The notes: a model not told the origin generated them from the sequence alone. DNA of 64,000 bases from Psilocybe cubensis (GCA_017499595.2 CM039002.1:1240001-1304000); one strand, 5' to 3'; positions 5,594 to 25,532 are shown, numbered from the stretch's first letter. A program made the numbers and translations.

Positions 5594-8500
5594 ATGGCGG
5601 CTGGTCAGTTTGCCTCTCTTTCTGTGGTCATCATAACCACGTTTAACCCTTCATTACTGTTCGTTACAGCTCCTCGACGCGGTAGGCCAAGGATTGTATG
5701 CTGATTCTCCGCGCCTTAATAAATATCTCTACTAACAAGTCCGCTCACTGGACGGCAGATGGCACCGCGAAGGGTAAAATAACCGTTTACTCACATTTCT
5801 TTTTCTAATCTATGCTTTATCTTGCAGCATGGCCCAGAATTCTCTCCTGAAAGCACATGGGCTGAACTATCCAGAAACATACGCGAAATCCAAAATCACA
5901 AAGCATCAACCCTTTCATTTGAGGAAAATCACCGTTATGCATACAATATGGTCCTATATAAACAGGGTGATATGTTGTACAGAGGTGTCAAACGCCTTGT
6001 TATGGAAAATCTGGAATCGCTGGCTAAGGAGGAGATCATCCCAGCGTTTCCAACTGGAACGACCGATCCAATAATGCAGAATACCGAGGAGGAAGTTCTT
6101 CTTAAAGCCCTCCGCAAGGTCTGGGATGATCATAAAAGCAATATGGTTCGGTTAGGACAGATATTAAAATATATGGTGTGTGCATCTCTTTATCGACGTA
6201 CTTGTTCGACATCTTGATAACTATGTTATAGGACCGCGTACATACCAAGTCTGCTCAAGTCCCTACAACCAATGAAATGGGTCTCGAACTATTCCTTAGC
6301 CACATAATGAAAAATCCCATCAAGGAGCATATTGTCACCGCGATTTTGAATCAAATACGACACGAACGAGACGGAAACGTCATTAATCGATCAGCTGTAA
6401 AGGAATGTGTTGATGTCTTCCAGAGCCTCCAGTATGAAAATACGCCCACAGCAACAATTTACAAACGTGATTTGGAACCCCCGCTGTTGGAGGCTAGCAG
6501 GGCTTTCTACCAAAAAGAAGGGCAGGAGCTCGCCACTACATGCACAACTCCAGAGTTCTTGATCTTAGTGCGTGCGCATTTCTTTCCATCTCTTCTATGC
6601 TAATACTTGAGCAGGTGGAAGCGCGCTTTGAAGCAGAGCAATCGCGGACACATCATTACTTGTCCAGTCAGACTAGTCATCCCCTTCTTCAAATCTTAAA
6701 GGATACCCTACTGGACCCACATATAGAGAACGTAATTGCAAAGGAATCTGGTCTGGATTCTATGATTGACAACAACAAAACATCAGATCTTTCACGCCTT
6801 TTCCGATTGTGTCAGAAAATTGGGAAAGGCTTGAAATGTTTAGAATCATCGTTGAAGAAATCTATCGTCCGCAGAGGACAAGAGATTAACGCTGCATCAA
6901 CAGGAGACGAGTTTGGCGAACCTGACGCCGAGGGCAAAGAGACGGAACAATCTACCAAAGGGAAAGGAAAGGCACGACCCCCTAAAGCATCTGGTATTGA
7001 GCCAGCCATAAATTGGGTTCAAGAAGTCCTCAACCTCAAGGATAAATTCGACGTAGTATGGAAAACTTGTTTTGAAAGTAATAGAGCCATTGAAAGTGCC
7101 TATAACGATGTAGGTTTGTTTTGCCGATTGATGGTCTTTCCGCATAACCTTATTTGACTCCAGGCCTTTGGGACGTTTGTCAATCAAAACGAAAAGTGCT
7201 CCGAATTCATTTCTCTGTTCATCGACGACCATCTAAAAAGGGGACTTAAAGGCGTCAGTATCAGTATCCTTGTCTTGTGTATCCTACATTATGCTGATGG
7301 ACAATACGTACAGAAATCTGATGTTGAAGTCGATGTTATCCTCGATAAAACGATCACCATTTTCCGCTTCATCTCAGAGAAAGATGTGTTTGAACGATAT
7401 TACAAGGGTCATTTGGCGAAGCGTCTCCTTCAAGGGAAATCAATCTCCGATGATGCTGAACGCGGGATGCTTGCAAAATTCAAAGTGGAACAAGGAATCC
7501 AGTTTACTCAGAAGATGGAAGGAATGTTTAACGACATGAAGATATCCGCTGACATGACGAAGGAGTACCTGGAACATGTCGCGAAGACAACAGTAAGTTA
7601 GGCTGCGTTTGTCCCAAGCTTAATGTTAACATATTTTAGGCCCCTGAAATTGAACTGAACGTTACAGTCATGACCTCAAATGCATGGCCAATGACTCACT
7701 CGGCTTCAAAATGCCTACTTCCTCCGAAAATGTCAGAGGCATGCCAATCTTTTCAGCATTTTTACCTTGGACGGCATCAAGGGCGTCGTTTAACGTGGCA
7801 ATTTTCTCTCGGAAATGCCGATGTGATAGCAAGATTCAAAAGTAAAACGCACGAGCTTAACGTTTCGACTTTTGCTTTGGTGATCCTTCTTTTGTTTGAA
7901 GATCTTGGCGACGGTGATACCCTAGGTTATTCAGTAAGTGTTGTTTGCTACTTGTGTTGAGAAAATACAATTAATAATATGTGAAAGGAAATTAAACAAA
8001 ACACTGAGATAGATGAACCTGAACTCAAAAGACACCTCCAATCCTTGGCCTGTGCAAAGTACAAAATATTGAAGAAACATCCTCCAGGACGTGATATCAA
8101 CCCAAATGATACATTTTCGTTCAATATCGATTTCTCATGCCCCATGAAGAAGATCAAGATTGGTACAATTTCTTCGAAGGTCGAGAGTAACGAAGAGAGA
8201 AAGGAAACTATCGATCGCGTCGAAGATGAAAGAAAATATCAAATGGAGGTATGCTCGGTCATGTAAATCAAATTTTTCTTGTCTCACAAATATTGCACCC
8301 CATCTTTTGCATAGGCTTGCATTGTTCGCATTATGAAGGGCCGGAAAAAGATGACGCACAATGATTTGGTCCATGAAGTTACTCAACAACTGACAAGCAA
8401 ATTCATGCCCGAACCTCTGGCGATCAAGAAGCGGATAGAAGGGTTGATCGAAGTAAGTCTACGTTGATATTCAGATGACACTTCTTTAACAACGTTCATA

Positions 8501-8611
8501 GAGAGACTATCTGCAACGTTGTGATGACCGCAAATCATATGAGTATTTGGTACGCTTCAGTTTATCTGAAAAATGCTCAGCTTATTCAACAAATGCGTTC
8601 TACAGGCATGA
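5594..8611 (+). CDS. CUL3: Cullin-3 family E3 ligase scaffold, multi-exon
   Basis: [76 protein letters not shown], and the neddylation-site motif [11 protein letters not shown]. Start reconstructed through three micro-exons. Confidence 0.93.
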
Positions 8612-9019: not shown

Positions 9020-9758
9020 TCAAAACCCCAAGCCGTTATGCAGACTCTGTAATTGGAAAATGGTTTGTAGCTTGAGAATCGATTGAGGGGACCTTGAGTC
9101 ATCCCAATTGGAACCACTGAAGACCCTGGAGTGTTGGCCGATATCACGACCGTCGAAGCCGAAATCTCTGTTGTTAAAGGACCCATCTGAGTTCAGGATC
9201 TGAAGGATCAGTGTCGCGATATTGGAATCAAAGCTGACACTGCGCCCGGACTGGCGCGATATATCCCGTTTAAATTGGAACAACCGACTTTGGAACTGCT
9301 CCAGGAGGATGAATTGGGTCTCGACATCGCATATCTGCTGTAGAAGGATCCTTTTGCGGGATATCAGGCTACTTCAATTATATCTAATGATCAGGGTGGC
9401 TTACTGTTTCGCAAACTCTTGGACGATGGAAAGCTGTTGCTGGATAACAGTAATATCTTGGTTTCTGCAAACTTGGTCTTCTTGAACAAGAATAACTTGT
9501 TGATTTCGAGACCCATCAAAATTGTCGGTCCCGAAGAAATTATCGAAGTGGGCAAGAGAAGAAAGGCCACCCCAGCTATTGAACAATATACTACGAGAGC
9601 TGCTCACTAATCAAAAAACGAAATCAGTGACCTCTTCGGGTATTGGGCGACAAAAACGAACCAATCGATGTATTACGTTTATGGCCAGGCATAGGTGATG
9701 CAAATACCGTCAAAGCGGCGGCGAACATAAAAAGGGTTTTCAATAAAGAAGCGACCAT
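9020..9758 (-). CDS. Small secreted protein of unknown function (paralogue A), 3 exons
   Basis: Signal peptide MVASLLKTLFMFAAALTVFASP. Exons 9758-9677, 9606-9405 and 9350-9020 splice in frame. Clear similarity to 11255..11982 (FDNFFGTDNFD, IQQQLSIVQEFAK, QICDVETQ, GSNWDDSRS). Confidence 0.85.
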
Positions 9759-11254: not shown

Positions 11255-11982
11255 TTAGAAGGTGGTGACAGCAGAGCGGGCAGCCTTGTAAGCGTTTCCG
11301 ACTGAGCCGAATGAGCGGCTGTTGTCCCAGTTGTTGCCACTGGGGACAACGTAGGAGTGGCCGAGGTCGCTTCCAGAGAAGCCCCAGTCGTCGGTGCTCA
11401 ACGAACCATCGCTTCCGTAGAAGTTGCTGAAGTGCGAGACGATGTCAGAGTCATATCCAACGTCGCGGCCAGAGAAGCGCCTGAGGTCGCGGCTGAATCC
11501 ATGTAAACTGGCATGGAATTGTTCGAAGACGACGGTCTGAGTCTCAACTTCACAGATCTGCTCGGAGATGATGCTATAGCCAGATAACGTGAGTATGTAT
11601 TATTCATGCGAATGAGATCCAAATGTTACTAACCGCTTGGCCATCTCCTGGAGAACAAGTAGACGCTGTTGAATAATTTCGACGCTTTCGGAGTGGCAGA
11701 CAACCTCCTTCTCCTTAATAACAGAGATGGAGCTTTCGCTGAAGTGGCTGTTATCGAAGTTATCGGAGCCGTAGAAGTTGTCAAATCCATTGAAGGAGCT
11801 AATTCCACCGTAGTTGTCAAAAGAGTGGACTCCACCACGAACGACTAACACATAAGCCATAAGCAAGCAGTTTATACATGGATAGAGAAATACACACCCA
11901 AGCCAGTGTTAGTGACAGGAACGGCAGAGGCCGAGAGGACGGAGATGGCGACGGTAAGAGCAGCAGCGAGTTTAGCGAACAT
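11255..11982 (-). CDS. Small secreted protein of unknown function (paralogue B), 3 exons
   Basis: Signal peptide MFAKLAAALTVAISVLSASAVP; FDNFYGSDNFD, IIQQRLLVLQEMAKR, QICEVETQ, GNNWDNSRS. The two introns are at the same positions and phases (1 and 2) as in paralogue A. Strong C/T-ending codon bias. Confidence 0.88.
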
Positions 11983-12230
11983 GATGATTTAAAGTGTTGA
12001 AATGGGAAAATTCAAAGTTCTGGCCGAATTGGATATCAGTCTTCAAATTAGTAGATCGAAAAAAATCAGACACCTACTTGCTATAAGCACGAATGTAAGG
12101 CCTACCCTGGAGGAATTGAACGAAGTGAGCAAAGACTGTGATGGGCAACCTGGCCGAACAAAAAGAGCAAAGAGCGAAAGACGAAAAGAAAGAAACGAAA
12201 GTTGATGCATATTCAGCTGTACATCTTGAG

Positions 12231-13401: not shown

Positions 13402-15165
13402 TCACAGTTCGTCGTGTGTTGACGATGGTGACTGGAAAGCCTCCGTGAGTTCTGCGTGGAGAAACAAATGTTTAGTGAGATCATGACAAAAAGTGTAAAG
13501 AGACACAGGACATCTGGAAATCCAAACAAGGGAAAAGAAGAAAGCACTTACTCCTACGCATCTCCGGAGTTATTTCGCCAGGTAGAATAACGTTATACTC
13601 GATGAACAAGTCGCCCTTCACATCTCTATTGCCGAATACCGGCATACCCTCTCCTTTCACGACTTGTACAAAACCTGCCGAGTGTAAAATGATTTACAGC
13701 TAGATATGTCAATGTGGTGAGGCTGACGAACCTGGTTGCGTGACCCCTTTTCTCACAATCTGAACATTATGACCGTCTAAATGGGTGATATTTTTCTCGA
13801 ATCCGAGCAGTGCCTAAATGATACGTCAGGTCAACGTGTATTAATAACCACACGGTGCTAACCTCATCGATACCAATGGTTTGTTTCCAGTACAGGCTTG
13901 TTTCTTTTCTCCTCCATGACCCTTTAACCTTTTTACTCCTTACTCGCAAAACAACATCACCGGCCTCCCAATCAGGACTCTCGTCTGCCTCTCCTTCGAA
14001 AACTACTTCATGACCCTCTGGCATACCAGGCGTAACTTCAAGCGTGTAGTGTGCAGTATGGTCGACGACTTTATGGCCTTGACAATGGGGGCAAAGCTTT
14101 TTGATAACCTTCCCCCGCCCATTACACTCATTACAGGTTACTTGACTTTGCGCGAACATTCCAGGGAATATCTCCAGAGGAGTTTTAGATAATCAAAACG
14201 GAAAAAATATGAAAACTATACCTGTTGCTTGACTAACTTGACGCCGGCTCCGTTGCATCCTGTGCAAGTGTGAATGTCACCATCTGAAGCCGCACCCGAT
14301 CCTCTACAATGATCACATAGGATACGCTTCTTGATCATAAACTAGATATACCATTCGGGGAGGGTGAGTAGGGGCTACTAAAGGCCAAAACTGACTCACG
14401 TCTATACTTGCACCCTGATATCTACATCCCATGTTGAGATTGGCAATAGTTTATAGAATGGACGTAAAACTTACATATCCGCCAGTGAAACCTCGAATTC
14501 AGTTAAAGATGACGGCCCTCTTCTTGTCTGCTGTTGATGGTCTACGGCCAACGATTAGATATAATATTTACAGCTGTAAGCTAATTGAACACTTACGGCC
14601 ACCGAAGAAACTCGAGAAGACATCGAAGGGATTTGGTTGATGCTGACCGCCTTCATGAGCCTTGAGGCCCTCCTGATGATGAACGCGTAAATGTGTCTTC
14701 CAAGCCGATGAACAGCAAGAGCTTACCTCTCCATGTCGATCGTATATTTGGCGTTTCTTGGAAAGAAGCGTGAGTTCGAGATCTAGGACTGAATATGATG
14801 GCAATCATTACTGTTGGATCTGACAGAACTTCATAGGCTAGATGGGAATTCGAATTAATTTGTATTGTACTTCGAATCATACTCGCACTCACCTCTGGCA
14901 ATGTCTACAAACCTATCCTCCGCGCCCGGATCCTTGTTCTTGTCTGGGTGATATTTCTTGCTGAGTCTCTTGTATGCAGCTCTGATATCTTTCTCCGATG
15001 CTGACTTATGCACTATTAAACAGACAAGACGCAAAGTTCATGATTAACGCGTTTCGTATCCGACGCCTCATGAAATTACTGACCATCCAATATTTTGTAC
15101 AAGTCGGCCGCTGCTACTAACATTGCCAGGCCCAGAACCACCAGCAAAACAGGCGATAACATCAT
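13402..15165 (-). CDS. SCJ1: ER-lumenal type I DnaJ/Hsp40 co-chaperone (Scj1-like), multi-exon
   Basis: Signal peptide MMLSPVLLVVLGLAMLVAAA; J domain (DLYKIL...KYHPDKN...AYEVLSD); CxxCxGxG zinc-finger repeats (CDHCRGSG, CTGCNGAG, CNECNGRG, CPHCQGHK); last exon ends ...PSSTHDEL*, an ER-retention signal. Confidence 0.9.
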
Positions 15166-15443
15166 GAAAGAGAAGGGGTAAAAAGAAAAGTGAAGGGTAT
15201 TAGGGAACACAACAGCTTTACGCCGCTATGTTGTTGCTCTCTATAAATTTACTTAATGGTCTACGTGTCCTAACACCGTCAAGGGGGAAATGATTGAAAG
15301 TGTGACACGTGACATAATAGTCTAACGTGGAGCGGACCGCGACCCCGTTGATCGTGCAAACTTGGAACCCGTCCCTCACATCCCGAAAATACAGTGGACT
15401 CGTTCAAACGGTGGTCGCTCACTGCTCAGTGGGTAGACAACTC

Positions 15444-17152
15444 ATGCTCAACTTGATATCTCGTCAGAGGAGCTCAAAATGGATTGTGCGAAGGGGCCTT
15501 CATAGCACAATATACCCGTATCAGAAGCTTAGAGGTAGGGAGTTTTCCTCTGGCTAGATAGCAGTGATGACTGAGATGTTTACCCTCCCATTGTTATATA
15601 GCATTTCCGTTTGTTTTACCTCCTGAAGAAGCTATACAACGGATGAATCCTTATGTGAGGATCTCCTGCAATGAATTTGGATGGCGCGACAGGTTTTTCC
15701 CCCGAGGATTTGTCGCAGCCAAACGCCCTGTTATAATAGAAGCAGTATATTTTCCAACCTGGTTATTTGGGGGCCGCATTATGTTGGATCTCATTGGCAT
15801 GAAAGGTGTGATCATCAAAAAATTACTTTCCACCAACCTAATCTAGCCGCACCGACAGGCACACCTCTCGAGACGGCTATGTTTGCGCACATTTTCAATC
15901 TTGCTAGGTGAGTCTTCGCTGCGCCATTCGGAATTTTATGTTGAGCATTGAAATCAGCCCAATCCCAGGTAAATTTTTAACGATAAAGTTAATCCGCTTG
16001 GTTTGAATATGTTGGTCCAGGATGTGCCGTTCCGTTATTATCCTCTGCAAGCATATGGTCTCTCCGATCCATGGAAAATATCACACCACTCCCGCTCACA
16101 GATTCATTTCTGCGAGGGCAAGAAGCAAGCATTGTACGTATGCAACACGAAGCCGTAAAATTTTATTGCTTAAAAGGTTTTTCGCATGGATACAGGAGAC
16201 AAGTTATTTGAAAGGAATTCGATGCATACCCTTTACTACCTCCCCGTTCTCCGTCTTGAAGTTGATAGATACAGCAGCTGGGCGTACATTAACACTTGGT
16301 CCAGACAGTCTCTACGTCAAGTCGAGCAGAATTTATGACGTGAGGACTTCGACGATCTTATGTTTTGCTGTCTAACAATGTTTACAATAGTTCAGCGCCA
16401 TGCCAGTCCTACTTCCTATGTATGTCGCAAAATTTAAGGACAAATATAATCAAAGTTTACGTGCATTTATAGAAGCACATACAATAGAGGCTAGTTTTTT
16501 TGTCTTCGTACTCAATCCCATGCTCATCACGGTCCTTAGGCGTCAGTTAAAATCGACAGATTTCAGGCAGCAGCAATAGCACGCAGCCATAATCGCCCTT
16601 TGCCTCGGGTTTTTAATAATGGAATGAAAGACCATGATGTGTCATTAATCGACAACGGAAACGAAGTGATCGATTTTGGCAACCCTTTCAAGAGGTTAAA
16701 CGGTACATTTATGACTAACAATGAAAGCAACATCACTATAGGACTTTTTGAAGCTTATCTGTGGCACATTTTGGGTTCTTACGAAAATGTCAAGAAATTG
16801 GAGTCATTGGGGAGCCTTGCTTCAGACGAAGACAGTCGCATTCATGAAATGACGGCAAAAGAGATGGCGAAAAGAAAACAGGCCTTACAAGATGAGAAAG
16901 ACAGGCTGGTAAGTGCATCGTGTAATTGTAACGTCTAGAAACTTAATTCATCGATTTTCATACGATATCTAGCTAAATTTCATGAAGACCCGTAATATAT
17001 CGCCTACCAAAGAAAACGTTCGACAGCGGACTTCCAAGCTGGGAGTATGGTCGAAATACAAGACTTCTCCAGAGACACGACGTACATCGGGCACTGCGAC
17101 ACAGGAGCAGCCAACTACTCAGCCCAGCCAAAAGAAGAGCGGAAATCCTTGA
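15444..17152 (+). CDS. Unannotated protein with mitochondrial-like presequence (paralogue 1), multi-exon
   Basis: Arg/Ser-rich, acid-free N-terminus MLNLISRQRSSKWIVRRGLHST. Exons splice in frame, requiring one GC-AG intron. Shares motifs with 17417..19148. Confidence 0.75.
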
Positions 17153-17416
17153 CATCTGCTGTTACCTTGCGAAAATCATGCATACAAGGATTCTGTTCAG
17201 TCAACAACCGATAAAAATTAGCTAATTTATCTATATAATACATTCATATATATATGCATGTGTGTCTGTGTACTTTTCAGCCAGACAAGTATCAGCCTCG
17301 GGGCCGGGTTTGAATCAATCGTAATTAGTTCAACAGCCGCTCGGGCACGTGATGTATGGTAAACCGTGAGCAAGCGCGAACGTTAAGCTACAACAAGTCT
17401 ACAAAATATTGCCACC

Positions 17417-19148
17417 ATGCTCAGACGAATACCTAAAATAAAGCACTGTGCCTCGCAGATATTTTCTCGGAAATCGTCAACCAACCGCGGTACACCATAC
17501 GATGCCATTTTCACAAATAAGAAACTGAGAGGTCCATTTCATCTGTAGAACGAAGTCGGCAATTTCTAAAAGTAATTCGCAGCCTATCCCTTCGAGGTCT
17601 CTCCGGAAGATGCTCTAAGGCAAATGGGAGGATGGGCGGGCGCATTCAGCAGTACGACAGCGAGTGGGCTCATGAGCTCGGTGCTTGCTACGGTGGTGCC
17701 ATTTATTGATTACCAACGCCCCGTCAAAATGACCGCTGTTTACTTTCCGGCTTGGATCATCAATGCAGAAATCGAGGCCAGACTTACCCATGGATCATCA
17801 GAGGTCCGTTTTATGTCCATAAGTTCTTTCACAATGGGATTTTTTCATTAATAGTCATGACAAGCAGCAAAACGCGTCGGCAACCATTAGAAATACGTGC
17901 GTCTTTTAATTCATTTTGGGATGATACAAATTTTATCTGAGTATCTGAATTTAAAGATATGTCCCAGGTTTGCCCATCGATTTACCAGAGGTTCAAAAGC
18001 TGGACTAAAAATTTGTAGGCTTCGACGCTCCACTATTGTCTGCTGCACCTCTGTGGAATTCAGACGGAGACAACTACAGGGAAGACTTGGTACCGTTTAC
18101 TGCAGAGTTTTTGGAGCAGCAAGCATTAGATGTCCAATGTATACCTTTCTCGGTGTCACCATTTTCCCTTCTCGACATTCCGGCCTCTGCGAACAGCAGT
18201 ACATCATGGGAAATTAGCCGGGATTTAAGTGTATCCCCTTCGTCCATAAGGACAACGTTGGTAAGGCCTTCGCGTTATTTATTAAATTGACCAGTAACAT
18301 TTCATCTTACATACTTTCTCAGTTTTCAGCACAGCCAGTTTTGATCCCACTCTACATGGGTCTCTACAATGTTGGTGAAAAGACTGGCCAAACAATGACT
18401 TTCTTCACTTCAGGCTTTGCGAATGCCGTAAGTACTTTCACTAGCCCTCTGCGAACAAGCTTAAAATCTTGTACAGCAAAATGTCATGACGCAGAACATC
18501 AGTGGTATGAATCGAGTAGTGGAAGAAACCTACAAAGGCCTCTCGAAGCTTTCCCTATTCAAATGGCTAGATCTTGACGCAGGTGCATCGTAGAAGTGTT
18601 CAGTTTGAAGAATGTCGTTGCTCACTCATTAACGTACAGAGGTTTTCAGGTTCACTGACTACGAGTCAGTGCGGCAAGTGCACATTGGAGGAGTATCTAT
18701 ATCACCCGCCGTCGACACCGCAAATTCAATTTCCAAATGGCTACAAGGCCAACTTGGTTCGTCTGAAAACATCTCGAAACTGGCTGCAATGCGCAGATTC
18801 GAAAGTGATTCCGACCTACGCATTCGGGAAATGTCAGAAGAGGAAGACCAGGCATTGAAACGATATTTAGATCTTTCATCAGAAATAAGCATGATCAAAC
18901 GGATTATTGAAGTCAGTCTACATCATACTTTGCACTGTTTCAGTCCCTAACCGTCCCCACAGACGATGAAAGTCGCAAATAACAAAGCCATGGTTCTTAC
19001 TTATGGGGATGGCAAGATGCCGCACTTTCAGGCTGCAGAAGCTGCCGCTGCTACGTTGGCCGCCAAACTTGAGGAACTAGAACGCCAACGAGAAGAAGCT
19101 AGGCCTGAGTGGTGGATGGTGTGGGAGGTGTCAAATAGCACGTTGTAG
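17417..19148 (+). CDS. Unannotated protein with mitochondrial-like presequence (paralogue 2), multi-exon
   Basis: GCCACCATG start; N-terminus MLRRIPKIKHCASQIFSRKSSTNR. Motifs LRAYPFEVSPEDA, AVYFPAWII, CIPFSVSPFSLL, FSAQPVLIPLY and DLRIREMS are shared with paralogue 1. C-terminal coiled coil; stop TAG at 19146-19148. Confidence 0.8.
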
Positions 19149-19355
19149 TGGGATAACTGGCGAACAACTGCTTAAAATTTAATAAAGATATGTAGTTGCT
19201 CACTGCCCCTTCCCTCGGGGGTTTTCATATGTGAAAATCGTTGAATTAGTTAGCAGAGTAGGTGATGTGTATAGACGCTGCAGTTAGATATAAATATCTT
19301 TTAACATTACAAGTACAAATCCGAATATGTGCATATATGAAGTGTTCGACATTCG

Positions 19356-21873
19356 TCAAGTTCTAGGAAATGACAGCGCCCACGTAATTGTGATGGAAGT
19401 AATCAGTAACACCCAGAATGGATTGTTGGGACCTGCGCTGCTGGAGGGCAACCCCAACGTTACCGCTGCCATAGAGGCAATCGAAACAGTGGTCGAGACA
19501 TCCCCTGCCGAGTCAGTCACAACGAGCGTTCGGACTGTAGGCGAAGGTGAAATTGTGGGTAGAGCAGAGACGTTGGTCAATGCGGTCTTTTGGGCAAACA
19601 ACGCACTGTAGGTGGTGTTCGCAAGGCCAGAACTCACGATACCACCGACTGATACTGATACTGAGGTGTTAAGAGTGTAAGGCGGTGTAGTGAAGGTTGG
19701 TGTGGATAAGATGAAGTTTGGAAGAGTGGTTGTGACAGTTGCTGAGTTGGCAGAAAGGAAAGAAGCAAGCTGGGTTTCAGTAATGTTTGTACTGTTTTGC
19801 AGGGGGTATAGGCCGATCAAGGGAGGCTCTTTGCCGTTAATTCCGAAACTATTTGGGAATTAGCTCATTTTCGAACAGATTGAAAGATAAATATTACTTG
19901 AAAATCGAATAGACTGTCCTCAAGAAGGCTGAACCTGTACAGAGAGTAAGTAGACGTTCGATGTTTTTAGCTGAAGACGTTTTACCGAATTGCCAATCAA
20001 TGCCGTCAGAACTTGGGGGAAGGGCCAAAGGCCATGACAGACATAAATTTGGGTTTCCAGAAGCTGGTCCGATGATATAGTCTGTGGGGGAAATGGAGTA
20101 ATTACGTTGTCTGAAGTGATGTCACATGAGGGCTCGAAATAGGAAAAAAAAATTGATGATGTACCCAAAGGTAAACGACATCGGAACAGTGGTGTCGCAT
20201 GGAAGAGCCCATTGTCCATTACTAGCATCGACTAGGCGTGCGCCGTCGATCATAGTAAATATACGAGAAACCTGTTGTGTGAAAAGTCAGTGCTAAAATA
20301 TCGCGATTTCTTAGAGGCAAGACGATTACATCTTGGTAAGGCCCATAGATGCCTGGTGATCCACTAGTCATTTTTTGTTAAAAAGGGTTGTTGGTGAATC
20401 GTCAAGCTAGCAAGAACTATACACACATGTCAAACAGCGCAAGTGAACGTGTTAAGCCAATGTTGGCATATGTAGAAGTAGGGGTAAATTGCGTGCCATT
20501 AACCTTTGCCAAACTACAGTAAATATATATTGTACGCTTTCGGAATAAGATTACAACACTCACAGCAATACCCGTTATCGGGATCGCCCATTGCAAATAG
20601 CTAGAAACATTACTCTCTGCTCCAAAGGGGGGAAATTGAGCAACTTTATTCCACCCAATGTTGGTAGCGTTGGTCACAACGGAAGAATCAATTGCGCCTG
20701 TACCATTTGGCCGTTCAGCAAAAGTGCGAAACATGGGATCATTCTTCGTACCAAATGTAAGCGTTCCAGAAGCATTCCGCGTCAAACTGAGAGCAAACAG
20801 CGGATATTCCAGAACACCTCGAGCAGCTAGAGTTGCAAAGAAAGATGAAGCTAATAAAGGAAAACAAATTTACACTTTTGTGAGCACAATTATCAGGGCG
20901 AAACAAAAGTGTACAACACTTACCATTGGCTGCAGTGGAGATAGAAGAAAGCCTAGGAAACCCAAGGCCCATGATTCCAGTCGTCTGATCCGTGAGAGAG
21001 ACATTCGAGTCCGTCACAACGCCTGAGCATCAAGAATATGAGAAAAATACTGCATTACACCAGAAAAAAAAATTCCGAAGACCACAAAGGAGTGTAAATA
21101 AAAACGTACCAAACACCTGGTTGGCAATCGTCAGGTTGGAATTGGACAAACCAATCGTTTCTCTAGCGACAAATCCTGATGCGACTGTGACGTCAAAGTT
21201 GACCAAGTTGCAAAGCGCCATTTGTATCATTACAGTCACCGATATTGACCAAGCAAAGCAAAGCAGAGGAGAAGATGAGAAGACAGATGAACCACTTCAG
21301 AATCAATACATCATTTTGCGGAAGTGGCAAGCAAAAACGTACATGTGGTGTCGGCATATGACGCCTTGAACACAGTCTCATTGGCGTTCAGCTCGACGAA
21401 CGAGGGACTTCGATGATTAAGCGGATACAAAGGTATATTCTTGCAAGTAATTGTCTCGCAGGCGCTCGAGGCCAGCCATAGATCCGCCGAACCAGTGTCC
21501 AGATCAACGCGAAAGTTCAGCCCACCAACAGTGATAATCGTATAATATGATCTAGATGAAAGCGAACGATTGTAAGTTGTGACGAACGAACGTTTTTACA
21601 TTTATGGGACGAGTAAACATACTGTCTGTTACTCGCCAACGAAAGTGAGGTCAAGCTGGCTCCGAAAGTCGTGTTGTCCGCTGGCGAACGTGCGTGTAGT
21701 GTACGTATCGGGAGGGTAATAAGATCCGATGGCGCTCTCGGGATAATGTGTCCACCCATACCATTACCAACTGCTGCATAGCCCGCCGTTACAAGTTGGA
21801 GGAGCATGACGGTGTATAGCGCAACATTCGGAGAACCCGAGGAAGACTCATTATGGATGAAAGTCAGACGCAT
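19356..21873 (-). CDS. Pepsin-like (A1) aspartic protease, probably secreted/GPI-anchored, multi-exon
   Basis: LDTGSADLW first catalytic motif; flap SYAD; GIMGLGF; second motif FDIGS across an intron; Ser/Thr-rich stalk and hydrophobic C-terminus. Start codon uncertain (21873 or 21808). Confidence 0.85.
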
Positions 21874-22668
21874 AGTCCTGCGTAGATGTATGACTCCTTG
21901 TACGGTGTAATGATGCTTCAATTAGCACTGGGGTATCGGCGACATTAAGTGGATGGCCGGGGTCAAGGTCGCGAGAGCAGTTGAACTTTTGAAGAGTCGG
22001 TAAGAACGAAAATATGGATACAATGGTGTTTGAAAGTGATAATACTTTTCGAGAATGAGAGTGAAGAGAATGAGACCCGAGGAACAGAAGAAAACGAAAG
22101 GACCGGAAATATAACGACAACGAAACGAGTGTGAAAGTTAAGACAAGGTCAGTACTGGCCGCCGCAGCTCTGATCCCGCTTGCCTTTTCCGGCTTCATCA
22201 AGTCTTGGGTCCTTTCACCACCTCTAGAGCAATTCTAGAGATGTTGGAAATATTTTGGCCGCAGAAACACTCAGTGGGAATGGATTTCAGTTCACGGTGT
22301 AGATAGACATAGGACAAAACACATTTTTGGGATAGTACACAGTAAAATTTGATACATCCGATACAGCGAGAATGGGCCCTGGGTACTGGAGGCGGGGTGG
22401 GGCAGAGAACGAGAACTGACACGGTTAAAAGCTTGGGAGTGTGATAATGTTGAACGAATGGGCGTTGCCAAAAAAAAGAAAGAAAGAAGAAGAGAGAATG
22501 AAACTAAACCATAAAGATGAAGAAAAGAAACAAAAAAGTACGGAAAATAAATCATCAAGGGTAGCGCGCCATTACAATATATAAAAATGGTGAAAAAACA
22601 CGGCGTACAAAGGGTACGGATGTCGGATATATAAGAGAGAATATAAAAAGAGAGAATGATAAAAGCCA

Positions 22669-25532
22669 TTATCGCTTGGCAAATACTTTCTTGAGTAAAC
22701 CTAGAACTTTTGGAACATTGAGTTGGACATATTCCAAATCTAACAGATGCTTGTTGTCTTTTTGCTGAAGCAATGTGTCAGTAGTGGAAAAAGATCATGT
22801 CCGCCTCAACCCCATGGGTTGGCTGCCGACTTTAATCAGATCAAGAAAACACACCTTCTCCAGCAAATCATCAATCTTGAGATCCATCTCTAGAATAGCT
22901 TTCTCGCGCCCCTTGTAATGGAGTGCAATGATAAACGTCCCGGGAGTCGGTGACGTTATGTTGAAATAGATATTCGGTCGCCTACAGGCACATTATCAGC
23001 CACGCGACATCGAGACATCTGAAGGCAAGTTCAGAAAGACACTAACCGATTATCAGGCACATTACTCTCCACAATAATACCCTCTTTTTCCAGTTGTGCG
23101 TGTGTGAACCTATAAGGGCCTAGTACAACTGCCTTCACAGGCTTCTTCTCCTTTCCACCAACAGTAACTACACCGACACCCGTCGTACTGCCCTTGTCCT
23201 TGGTCGCAGTCAGACGCACATTCTGGAGATACGCCTTGTACTGCTCAAGCTGCGACCGCATGTAATTGTTGTGATCGCATATTGTCTTGTACACGGCCTC
23301 CAGTGACTTAGTCTCCAACACAACCTTTTCTCGCAGGTTCCCGAGGTGTACCAACTCTGCAGCTACTTCTTCCTGCATCAACCTGTACCCATCCGCCGCC
23401 TCGACGATTTTCTGCTCTTCCAGCTCCCGAAGCATCTCCTTGACCTTGATGCCCTTCCGCACAAGTACGGCGTCCTTCGTCGTGGCTGCCCGTTCGGCGA
23501 TCGCAGCAAGGTTGTACGGTCGTTTCTCGGCCGCATGAGGCAACGAACGGATCAGCTGCACAAAGATAGACTTGGTCTCCATGTACAGCATATCACTTGA
23601 TGACACTGAATCCATCAATGCACTTTGGATATCGTGCACCGGTGTTTCCCAACGACTATACAGGTTCAACTCGATCGTTCGGTTTTCTTTGCGGGGTACT
23701 TGAGGAGGCGCTGGGCCTAACTCGTCAGTAAGAATTCGTAGATGTTGCTTGTCGTTTGGGGACTGGAGGAAAACATTATTCAATGTATTTCCTCTCATTA
23801 CGGGCTTCATGCTTACCAGTGTCTCCACGTGTTGAAGAATGAGGGAATGCGTATTGTAAAGTTCGTTCAGCGTAATATGGATCATCAAATCTTTTTTAGA
23901 GAGGGCCATGTATTGATCCATCTGAATATTCCAAGTAAGTAAGATAGTAACAAATCCTTCTCATGCCAACGTACCTCAAGGGTATCATAGAAGTCTCCGA
24001 CCTCGCAAAGGTTGTTAAGGAACTGGTTGATGCGGGCTTTATTATTTTCGACGAAGGGATTAAGGGTCATCATGTACGCCTCCTTTGCGTACGAAGGTTT
24101 GTTTGCAAGATTCTGCAACATCTTCGCAATCTATTGTTCATGAATCATAAGTGCGTTGATTAGAAACTGTATCCATTGGCACACACCAAGGTAAGGGTTC
24201 GTCGTGGGTGCTTAGCAGGAACACCTTCCACAAGCATGTATGCCTGTGGCGTTACGATAGCGGGGTTGATGAAACGAAGGAAGAAAAACCCGCCAATGAG
24301 AGAGCAAATAGCATAATCAGTAGCGTCAGGATATTTACGCTAGTAGGAGGAAATGATTAGCAGGGCACGAGCAAAATGGAGCAATGGACACCAACTCTCG
24401 TCAGACTTCGAATCTGTTTGCATATCCAACGGATACCGTAAGGTACACTCTCCATACTCTCAATGATAGTCAACAAAAAGCTGTTGGCAATCTCCATGAG
24501 CATTGTGAGGCGTGGTGCGATGATAGCTTGGACATCATTGTTCTCTGCTGCTATTTCAGGTGCCACACCTCTGGGTAGATTAGGCGGAAGAGAGCCTGTT
24601 TCTTCTTCAATTTGGTTGATCATTTGCTCATAGACCTGTGATGTCCATTTAGAGACGGACGGTGCCTCCGATAAGCAAAGCATACCTTGACAGGATTGAT
24701 CTCTAGGTTGAGGTCCTTGTGTTCGATTAGGCTGTTTATGCGTTCGGCCAAGACGCTCTTGAGGTAGCTCTGACCAGGGCCACGGCGGGTATATGTCGTC
24801 ATCATGCGAGAAACAGGGGTATTGGCGCGAAGAAGCGAGCCGAACTCGGTTGCAGTCTCGAACTGAGCTGAGAGCACGCTCTGAAACATCGTGAGGAGAA
24901 GGTGTTCTTCTCTACTTTCGTACTGGTTTCCGTAAAGGGTGAACATGACGGTCTGAAGGAGAGTGTCGATCTCGGAAAGTGATACAAGGCGACAAAGAGC
25001 TGCAATATGTCGCGGCTCAGACTGGAGAAGGAAAAAAAGATTGGAGTACTGCTGTATTTTTCTGTCGTCTGGGTAATGTCCTTCTGTTGGATCAACTTCT
25101 TCCAGCGTGCGCTCCACTTCGCGTTGCTGTCAGACGATGTTGAGTACATAAACAAGGAACATTAATGGAGGATCGTGGTGGGAACAGATGCTTACTTCGT
25201 CGAGTGCCATTCTGTTCTGAATCAACAGGGCAATGCGAGAGTCAAGATAACGGACATCCCGTTCTAGAACGAAATTCTTTTTCGACTGAGCAGAGATCTT
25301 TCCCTTGAGGTCACGAAGACGCTTTTGCGCTGCAGATAAGAAAACGGGTCAGAGCAAGTGGGGAAAGCGACGGGGGGAGAAACGAACCTCTGGCCAAATC
25401 ATCCTCTACCTCGACATCCTGCTCTGCCGCCATGCTGAAGAGGGCGGTAACACTGTAGCGGTTTGTGTTCCTGTTGGTGAGACGGCGGGTGGAGGACATG
25501 CCTGGGGAGGTGGGCTGGTCCTGGTACGACAT
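22669..25532 (-). CDS. gap1: Ras GTPase-activating protein (Gap1/Sar1 type, with RasGAP_C domain), multi-exon
   Basis: [12 protein letters not shown] arginine-finger region, [30 protein letters not shown] signature, [11 protein letters not shown]-terminal coiled coil [24 protein letters not shown]. Confidence 0.93.

What the first reader, a model, noticed from the sequence alone, without database searches (positions are those of the whole stretch)
15444..19148. Tandem pair of unannotated, probably mitochondrial proteins with a motif series resembling an uncharacterised bacterial family
Seen in sequence: two adjacent same-strand genes with basic, acid-free N-termini and colinear motifs. These are LRA[FY]PFxxxPE[ED]A, RPVxxxAVYFPxW, CIPFxxSPFSxL, FSAxPVLxPxY and DxRIxEM. 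Both have an 11-nt micro-exon at the equivalent place (15958-15968 and 17957-17967). Inference from memory, not a search: the order PF..EEA / wfxP / (G/A)VYxPxW / xxPF...L / xLPx(W/Y) recalls bacterial proteins usually annotated 'TFIIB-type zinc ribbon-containing protein' or 'primosomal protein N'-like', here without the zinc ribbon. If real, this is a duplicated organelle-targeted family of bacterial origin with no known function.
Basis: partly seen in the sequence, partly recalled or inferred. Interest (0 to 1): 0.7.

Follow-up and report, generated by a model that had tools for sequence, protein, structure and literature searches.

The report
Mushroom mitochondrial relatives of bacterial YdjG
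Two neighbouring mushroom genes belong to an undescribed fungal family that very probably works in mitochondria and shares its core fold with a bacterial membrane-stress protein (YdjG/SamG), which points to an unstudied membrane-maintenance adaptor.

Summary
Observation confirmed. Both genes are real, spliced and 27% identical; gene 2 equals Psilocybe cubensis hypothetical protein JR316_0005876. All five motifs are present. The 11-nt micro-exon is family-wide (42 of 45 locus groups), not special to this pair.

The recalled bacterial link holds. Residues 37-241 match the unnamed core domain of Bacillus YdjG/SamG, annotated 'TFIIB-type zinc ribbon-containing protein' (HHalign 95.6%, E 1e-8; controls at most 4.4%; predicted-model TM 0.59-0.65). 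The zinc ribbons and membrane helix are missing; a presequence-like N-terminus (65 of 66 members) and a fungal helical C-terminal part replace them. The 'primosomal' label is not supported.

Bacterial origin by transfer is not shown: the same fold occurs in J-domain proteins of mostly green algae and in DnaJ-named giant-virus proteins, and the tree gives no donor.

Best guess: a non-enzymatic matrix adaptor in inner-membrane protein assembly or quality control (0.45). Gene 1 is a fast-evolving paralogue whose RNA contigs lose a 53-nt coding piece, giving a stop after residue 222. Earlier scan notes cover bacterial YdjG in other genomes; I found none on this fungal family.

The parts
15444..17152 (+). 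Gene 1, fast-evolving paralogue, 419 aa when 16420-16472 is kept. Exons 15444-15534, 15602-15805, 15859-15907, 15958-15968, 16021-16133, 16196-16339, 16391-16489, 16540-16908, 16973-17152; intron 16490-16539 is GC-AG
   Evidence: 50% identical to the N-terminal half of P. cyanescens P0002
15444..15530 (+). Presequence-like N-terminus of gene 1 (basic, no acids)
   Evidence: composition only
15958..15968 (+). 11-nt micro-exon of gene 1
   Evidence: table 5c (X1); family-wide
16420..16472 (+). 53-nt cryptic intron inside a conserved coding exon of gene 1; removal shifts the frame and ends the protein after residue 222
   Evidence: table 5c (X1 and X2, one study); a strong donor at this place in 3 of 77 family motif sites
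17417..19148 (+). Gene 2, conserved copy, 428 aa = JR316_0005876. Exons 17417-17531, 17583-17803, 17868-17896, 17957-17967, 18019-18260, 18323-18427, 18477-18582, 18640-18911, 18963-19148
   Evidence: 11 of the 12 coding variants checked... see full report for the count
17417..17525 (+). Presequence-like N-terminus of gene 2; residues 1-21 mostly under pLDDT 50 in the model
17526..18427 (+). YdjG/SamG-like core domain of gene 2 (residues 37-241, over exons 1-6)
17957..17967 (+). 11-nt micro-exon of gene 2
   Evidence: table 5c (X1, X2)
18477..19148 (+). Fungal-specific C-terminal part of gene 2: DxRxR motif, long helical hairpin, terminal PxWW helix

Best explanation
The two genes encode members of a basidiomycete family of nuclear-encoded mitochondrial proteins built on the YdjG/SamG core domain. 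Shown by computation: gene structure, homology of the core, loss of zinc ribbons and membrane helix, a well-modelled fold with no solved relative found. Inferred: the protein is imported by a cleavable presequence into the matrix, has no membrane anchor, and acts as a non-enzymatic adaptor at the matrix face of the inner membrane. There the core binds a client or scaffold during membrane-protein assembly or quality control (Hsp70, AAA-protease or SPFH network), and the fungal helical hairpin replaces the bacterial anchor as docking arm. Gene 2 keeps the ancestral job. Gene 1 is a lineage-specific duplicate under relaxed constraint, partly silenced by a frameshifting cryptic intron. My odds by step: core homology 0.95, mitochondrial 0.85, adaptor role of this kind about 0.55.
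For: Profile match Prob 95.6, E 1.1e-8, 182 columns; reversed profiles 0.5-0.6, 40 block shuffles at most 4.4. The fungal HMM ranks YdjG-type ORFs in the top 17 places of 175 ORFs; the bacterial HMM hits 98 of 155 fungal proteins at E<1 and 0 of 155 reversed copies. Atlas model TM 0.59-0.65 over 176-185 residues to six bacterial cluster rows, five of them with zinc-ribbon names or families. Separate AlphaFold2 models of the fungal protein (pLDDT 89.8) and the YdjG core (88.1) show the same order of elements and retrieve the same two top viral hits. Presequence features: net charge of +3 or more in the first 25 residues in 65 of 66 members with an N-terminal extension (66 of 96 rows) against 4.8% of 1320 internal windows; R-3 motif 40 of 66 against 10%. 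No membrane helix: 2 of 96 exceed hydropathy 1.8. Residues shared with YdjG are P, F, Y, W, A, with no catalytic set. Partners elsewhere are scaffolds or co-chaperones: an SPFH gene lies directly upstream in 4 of 4 annotated plasmid loci; YdjG is needed for membrane recruitment of YdjI and PspA (PMC8581546, passages); a 471-member eukaryotic cluster has a J domain in 100% of members.
Against: No localisation, interaction or phenotype data were found for any fungal member. No match to YdjI-type SPFH (PF13421), TPM (PF04536), PspA (PF04012) or Band_7_C (PF16200) was found in this genome (exon-wise search, not proof of absence), so the bacterial partners seem gone. In B. subtilis two-hybrid tests YdjG bound YdjH; the passages read name YdjH as the anchor for YdjI/PspA (PMC8581546). 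The fungal-only DxRxR motif (81, 85 and 80 of about 94 rows) could serve RNA or ligand binding instead. Sequence identity to YdjG is about 15%, so function need not be kept.
Confidence: 0.45

Rival explanations
1. Specific SPFH adaptor: the protein kept the bacterial job and binds a mitochondrial SPFH scaffold (prohibitin or a stomatin-like protein).
For: SPFH gene next to the YdjG homologue in alpha-, beta-, gammaproteobacterial and actinobacterial plasmid loci and in many Bacillota loci. The genome encodes two prohibitin-like genes and one stomatin-like gene.
Against: No YdjI-type SPFH match in the genome. From my own knowledge, prohibitin SPFH domains face the intermembrane space, while a cleavable presequence without a membrane helix points to the matrix.
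Confidence: 0.15
2. Lineage-specific subunit or assembly factor of an RNA-protein or respiratory complex (for example the mitoribosome), using the basic DxRxR surface and the helical hairpin.
For: Conserved R337/R339; single copy in most related loci; a sub-part of the YdjG core resembles ribosomal eL20/LX-type chains at Z 5.0-5.5, rmsd 2.1-3.0, 54-56 residues (the protein names are my reading of the chain ids).
Against: Those Z values are in the range the tool calls common; no solved chain matches by sequence; the family is very divergent (16-44% to gene 2) with repeated duplication.
Confidence: 0.2
3. Derived from a eukaryotic J-domain co-chaperone that lost its J domain; it now delivers clients to mitochondrial Hsp70 through a separate J protein. 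The bacterial link is then only deep ancestry, not a transfer into fungi.
For: TM 0.62 over 191 residues to a 591-aa cluster with PF00226 in all members, 99% eukaryotic, mostly Chlorophyta; best viral hits are named DnaJ-like (E 6e-5; E 4e-9 for YdjG core).
Against: I could not fetch those sequences, so their relation and targeting are untested; bacterial rows score as high in the Atlas (0.59-0.65).
Confidence: 0.15
4. Not mitochondrial: the basic N-terminus serves another purpose and the protein works in the cytosol or ER, perhaps with the neighbouring ER J protein.
For: A divergent Scj1-like gene lies upstream in 17 of 27 locus groups with room.
Against: Family-wide presequence features; the neighbour has a signal peptide and ends in HDEL; the unrelated downstream genes are also syntenic.
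Confidence: 0.07

Closest known systems
Bacillus subtilis YdjG / SamG (pspA-ydjGHI = pspA-samGHI operon; NCBI name 'TFIIB-type zinc ribbon-containing protein'; PMC8581546, PMC13713150, PMC11237479)
   Same: Core domain of about 205 residues: PF-helix start, YxPxW strand, long beta hairpin, closing LPxW/Y strands; same order of elements in two models.
   Different: No zinc ribbons (CxxC in 2 of 96 against two or more in 21 of 22 bacterial rows), no C-terminal membrane helix; adds a presequence-like start and about 185 C-terminal residues; no operon partners found.
J-domain proteins with the same fold: an unnamed 591-aa Atlas cluster (mostly Chlorophyta) and giant-virus proteins A0A5K0UBJ7 (Yasminevirus) and A0A3G4ZSZ8 (Edafosvirus)
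   Same: Structural match of the core.
   Different: The fungal proteins have no J domain (no PF00226 hit in 8 of 8 scanned). Sequences not obtained; the J domain of the viral proteins rests on their names only.
YpeB C-terminal / PepSY-like domains (5boi, 4exr, 2gu3)
   Same: A 61-66 residue part of the YdjG core aligns at Z 4.4-4.9, rmsd 3.2-3.3, in line with the remark in PMC11237479 that the YdjG domain is related to YpeB.
   Different: Covers under a third of the core; weak score; not tested on the fungal core alone.
Prefoldin beta subunits (6nr8, 1fxk, 2zdi)
   Same: Residues 342-428 form helix, beta hairpin, helix; Z 7.2-7.5, rmsd 5.4-7.0, 86-93 residues.
   Different: Score within the common range for helical hairpins; the tip varies from 0 to 132 residues across 83 members.

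Membership tests
YdjG/SamG | Core domain after the zinc ribbons | tested here: met
   HHalign 95.6%, E 1.1e-8 with negative controls; 94.0% with a wider bacterial set; TM 0.59-0.65
YdjG/SamG | Two N-terminal Cys4 zinc ribbons | tested here: not met
   CxxC in 2 of 96 fungal rows; none in either window protein
YdjG/SamG | C-terminal transmembrane helix | tested here: not met
   best 19-residue hydropathy 1.34-1.35 in the window proteins, family median 1.32; 1.36-3.61 in bacteria
YdjG/SamG | Partner genes: YdjI-type SPFH, TPM protein, PspA | tested here: inconclusive
   no match in this genome, but the search is exon by exon
YdjG/SamG | Needed to recruit SPFH and PspA to the membrane | not testable with these tools
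Primosomal protein N' (PriA) | Helicase or PriA profile match | tested here: not met
   no PriA model among hits for 8 of 8 fungal proteins at E<=1; YdjG hits it only by the ribbon
J-domain co-chaperones | J domain with HPD | tested here: not met
   no PF00226 hit in 8 of 8; no HPD in either translation
Prefoldin | Coiled coil with conserved beta hairpin that builds the oligomer | tested here: inconclusive
   Z 7.5, rmsd 5.6, 86 residues; tip not conserved in length
Presequence-targeted mitochondrial proteins | Arginine-rich, acid-poor, amphipathic N-terminus with R-3 type site | tested here: met
   65 of 66, 51 of 66 acid-free, 40 of 66 with R-3 motif; hydrophobic moment 0.61 against 0.42; own simple measure, not MitoFates or TargetP
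Presequence-targeted mitochondrial proteins | Import and processing shown | not testable with these tools
   needs imaging or import assay

The most novel reading that the evidence does not exclude
Basidiomycete mitochondria keep a remnant of the bacterial PspA-YdjGHI membrane-stress system: a YdjG core, rewired with a presequence and a new docking arm, that organises an inner-membrane surveillance complex unknown from yeast and animal studies; together with the algal and viral J-domain forms it would define an ancient eukaryotic adaptor domain.
Probability: 0.2. Interest if true: 0.75.

Novelty: new variant of a known kind. Interest (0 to 1): 0.5.

Why it matters
The YdjG core has no family model in the Pfam and NCBIfam copies searched and no solved relative was found, and the papers read treat it as bacterial. 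A conserved, probably mitochondrial version across two basidiomycete subphyla gives a first handle on an unnamed fungal family and a eukaryotic system in which to test what the domain binds. It is a candidate lineage-specific mitochondrial component that yeast-based inventories may miss. The tandem pair and the micro-exon are ordinary.

Tried and rejected
Pfam, NCBIfam and PHROGs scans: no family for the fungal proteins or the YdjG core. PDB by sequence and by fold: nothing clear; the fungal core was not folded alone, so this is not proof of a new fold.

Donor search: the fungal rows sit on a branch of about 3.3 changes per site and nest in no bacterial group (quick tree, 41 rows, 6 bacterial rows left out as fragment or near-copies). 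Alphaproteobacterial homologues score 9-14 bits against the fungal HMM, Bacillota up to 24; too weak to name a source.

Fetching the J-domain forms: no relative in viral contigs by pattern and 0 of 122 loci picked by a J-domain motif.

Arabidopsis BIL2/At3g58020 and animal SSUH2 were recalled leads. BIL2 is a mitochondrial J protein (PMC3664749: abstract, passages, section 19), but I saw no sequence; supplements of five DnaJ surveys were unreadable (2) or held no sequences (3). SSUH2: search listing only. Neither link is claimed.

Further paralogues in this genome: single-protein searches found only each gene itself and did not even cross-detect the neighbour, so copy number is open. The genome-level search of Bacillus with the fungal profile also missed YdjG, showing the first-look filter is too coarse here.

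No RNA holder was on record as RNA; X1 and X2 are treated as RNA because they skip introns that X4 and X5 keep. Atlas feature hits to a 173-aa archaeal cluster scored under 0.9 and were dropped.

Full report
Observation. The window is fungal DNA with short introns. Two same-strand genes lie at 15444-17152 and 17417-19148, nine exons each. The gene 2 model (428 aa) is identical to P0001, Psilocybe cubensis hypothetical protein JR316_0005876. Gene 1 gives 419 aa. Contigs of runs X1 and X2 (one study; RNA by their skipped introns) cover both genes as separate records and carry the 11-nt micro-exons. Of the 12 gene 2 coding variants among the rows shown, 10 are synonymous (5 rows of the variant table were not shown), which fits purifying selection.

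The family. A profile search found 468 representatives at E<=0.001 and listed 150. The 30 clusters for which I obtained an organism name are all Basidiomycota by my knowledge of the names: Agaricomycetes, Tremellomycetes (Vanrija) and Microbotryomycetes (Rhodotorula, Sporobolomyces). The 318 unlisted hits were not seen, so absence from other fungi is not shown. No Pfam or NCBIfam family fits. In 77 metagenome loci (52 distinct groups) the micro-exon pattern is present in 42 of 45 groups with enough sequence, against 49 of 537 control windows. It is an ancestral intron layout, not a feature of this pair.

The duplication. Gene 1 groups with the N-terminal half of the fused P. cyanescens model P0002, Galerina P0064 and Agrocybe P0114 (SH-aLRT 99, quick tree). 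It is 50% identical to its P. cyanescens orthologue, against 74% for gene 2, and lacks the terminal PxWW helix found in 71 of 96 rows. An Agrocybe-like locus has the same order of the two types (L041), and accession or locus numbers show clustered copies in Galerina and Agrocybe. Only 2 of 77 loci show two copies (many loci are short). Both RNA-like runs remove 16420-16472 from gene 1. This stretch encodes conserved core strands, is 53 nt long, and its loss ends the protein after residue 222. A strong donor at this place occurs in 3 of 77 family motif sites. Contigs drop rarer forms, so the full-length message may exist too.

The bacterial link. The Atlas structure search returned bacterial zinc-ribbon clusters, some named 'TFIIB-type zinc ribbon-containing protein'; for residues 33-250 the TM-scores are 0.59-0.65. 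Earlier scan notes named this family as YdjG/SamG, which I then tested. I fetched the Bacillus operon and homologues from 17 of 201 Bacillota genomes. HHalign of 96 fungal against 22 bacterial rows gave probability 95.6, E 1.1e-8, over fungal 37-241 and YdjG 94-303. Reversed profiles gave 0.5-0.6 and 40 block shuffles at most 4.4. The fungal HMM put YdjG-type ORFs in the top 17 places of 175, and the bacterial HMM hit 98 of 155 fungal proteins and 0 of 155 reversed ones at E<1. Against single-sequence YdjG the match was weak (32%). AlphaFold2 models of the fungal protein (pLDDT 89.8, pTM 0.88) and the YdjG core (88.1, 0.77) share the order of elements and the same two top viral hits. I could not superpose the two models directly.

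What differs. The fungal proteins lack the zinc ribbons and the membrane helix. They begin with about 31 basic residues: net charge of +3 or more in 65 of 66 members with an extension, R-3 motif in 40 of 66. They end in about 185 residues with a DxRxR motif and a long helical hairpin, whose prefoldin likeness (Z 7.5, rmsd 5.6, 86 residues) is probably generic. So they are not YdjG members in the strict sense, but carry its core domain.

Origin. Not resolved. The same fold appears in a 471-member eukaryotic J-domain cluster, mostly Chlorophyta (TM 0.62), and in two giant-virus proteins named DnaJ-like. Alpha-, beta- and gammaproteobacteria and an actinobacterium have YdjG homologues, but the fungal rows nest in no bacterial group. 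Endosymbiotic inheritance, ancient transfer and descent from a eukaryotic J protein all remain open.

How it most likely works. In B. subtilis, YdjG is needed for membrane foci of the SPFH protein YdjI and of PspA, and bound YdjH in two-hybrid tests (PMC8581546, 12 passages read). PMC13713150 (12 passages) renames it SamG and gives no mechanism in those passages. PMC11237479 (12 passages, one supplement search) calls the core an uncharacterised domain related to YpeB. An SPFH gene sits directly upstream in 4 of 4 annotated plasmid loci. Residues shared across kingdoms are structural. Together this points to a protein-binding adaptor. In the fungus the bacterial partners were not found, though prohibitin-like and stomatin-like genes are present. 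I therefore favour a general matrix-side adaptor in inner-membrane protein assembly or quality control (0.45) over a strict SPFH partner (0.15), a subunit of an RNA-protein or respiratory complex (0.2), a J-less co-chaperone (0.15) or a non-mitochondrial role (0.07). Every step after homology is inference.

Novelty. Searches of the open library found nothing for the NCBI family name, four locus tags or SamG/YdjG/YpeB with J-domain or fungi, and the listings showed no title on a eukaryotic YdjG. Subscription papers and unseen supplements may hold it. Scan notes by sequence and by words found no fungal case. Verdict: new variant of a known kind, interest 0.5.

Noticed in passing
window 13405-15170, minus strand (approximate): ER-type class A J protein (signal peptide, HPD, CxxCxGxG repeats, HDEL end; Scj1-like) head-to-head with gene 1. 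The divergent arrangement recurs in 17 of 27 related locus groups, mostly 340-510 bases between the J exon and the YxPxW exon.
   Followed up: partly
window 16420-16472: Frameshifting 53-nt cryptic intron in gene 1, spliced in contigs of both RNA-like runs; possible decay or regulation by nonsense-mediated decay.
   Followed up: partly
window 16490-16539: GC-AG intron in gene 1, supported by the RNA contigs.
   Followed up: yes
window about 19276-21950, minus strand: Spliced aspartic-protease-like gene (DTGS motif, S/T-rich tail) convergent with gene 2; syntenic in many related loci. Family call is by eye.
   Followed up: no
window about 22560-24000 minus strand and 6200-8550 plus strand: IQGAP-like and cullin-like genes, also syntenic with the family in related loci. 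Names are recalled from motifs, not searched.
   Followed up: no
window about 9200-9650 and 11300-12000, minus strand: Two similar genes with an FDNF(F/Y)GxDNF motif and a shared 'ICxVETQ' exon, apparently another tandem pair.
   Followed up: no
protein P0002 (P. cyanescens CVT25_012323): The 776-aa model is a fusion of the gene 1 and gene 2 orthologues, most likely an annotation error.
   Followed up: partly
L026:1096-2580: Divergent bacterial YdjG homologue with two membrane helices and a long C-terminal tail, behind an SPFH gene with a SHOCT-like end.
   Followed up: no
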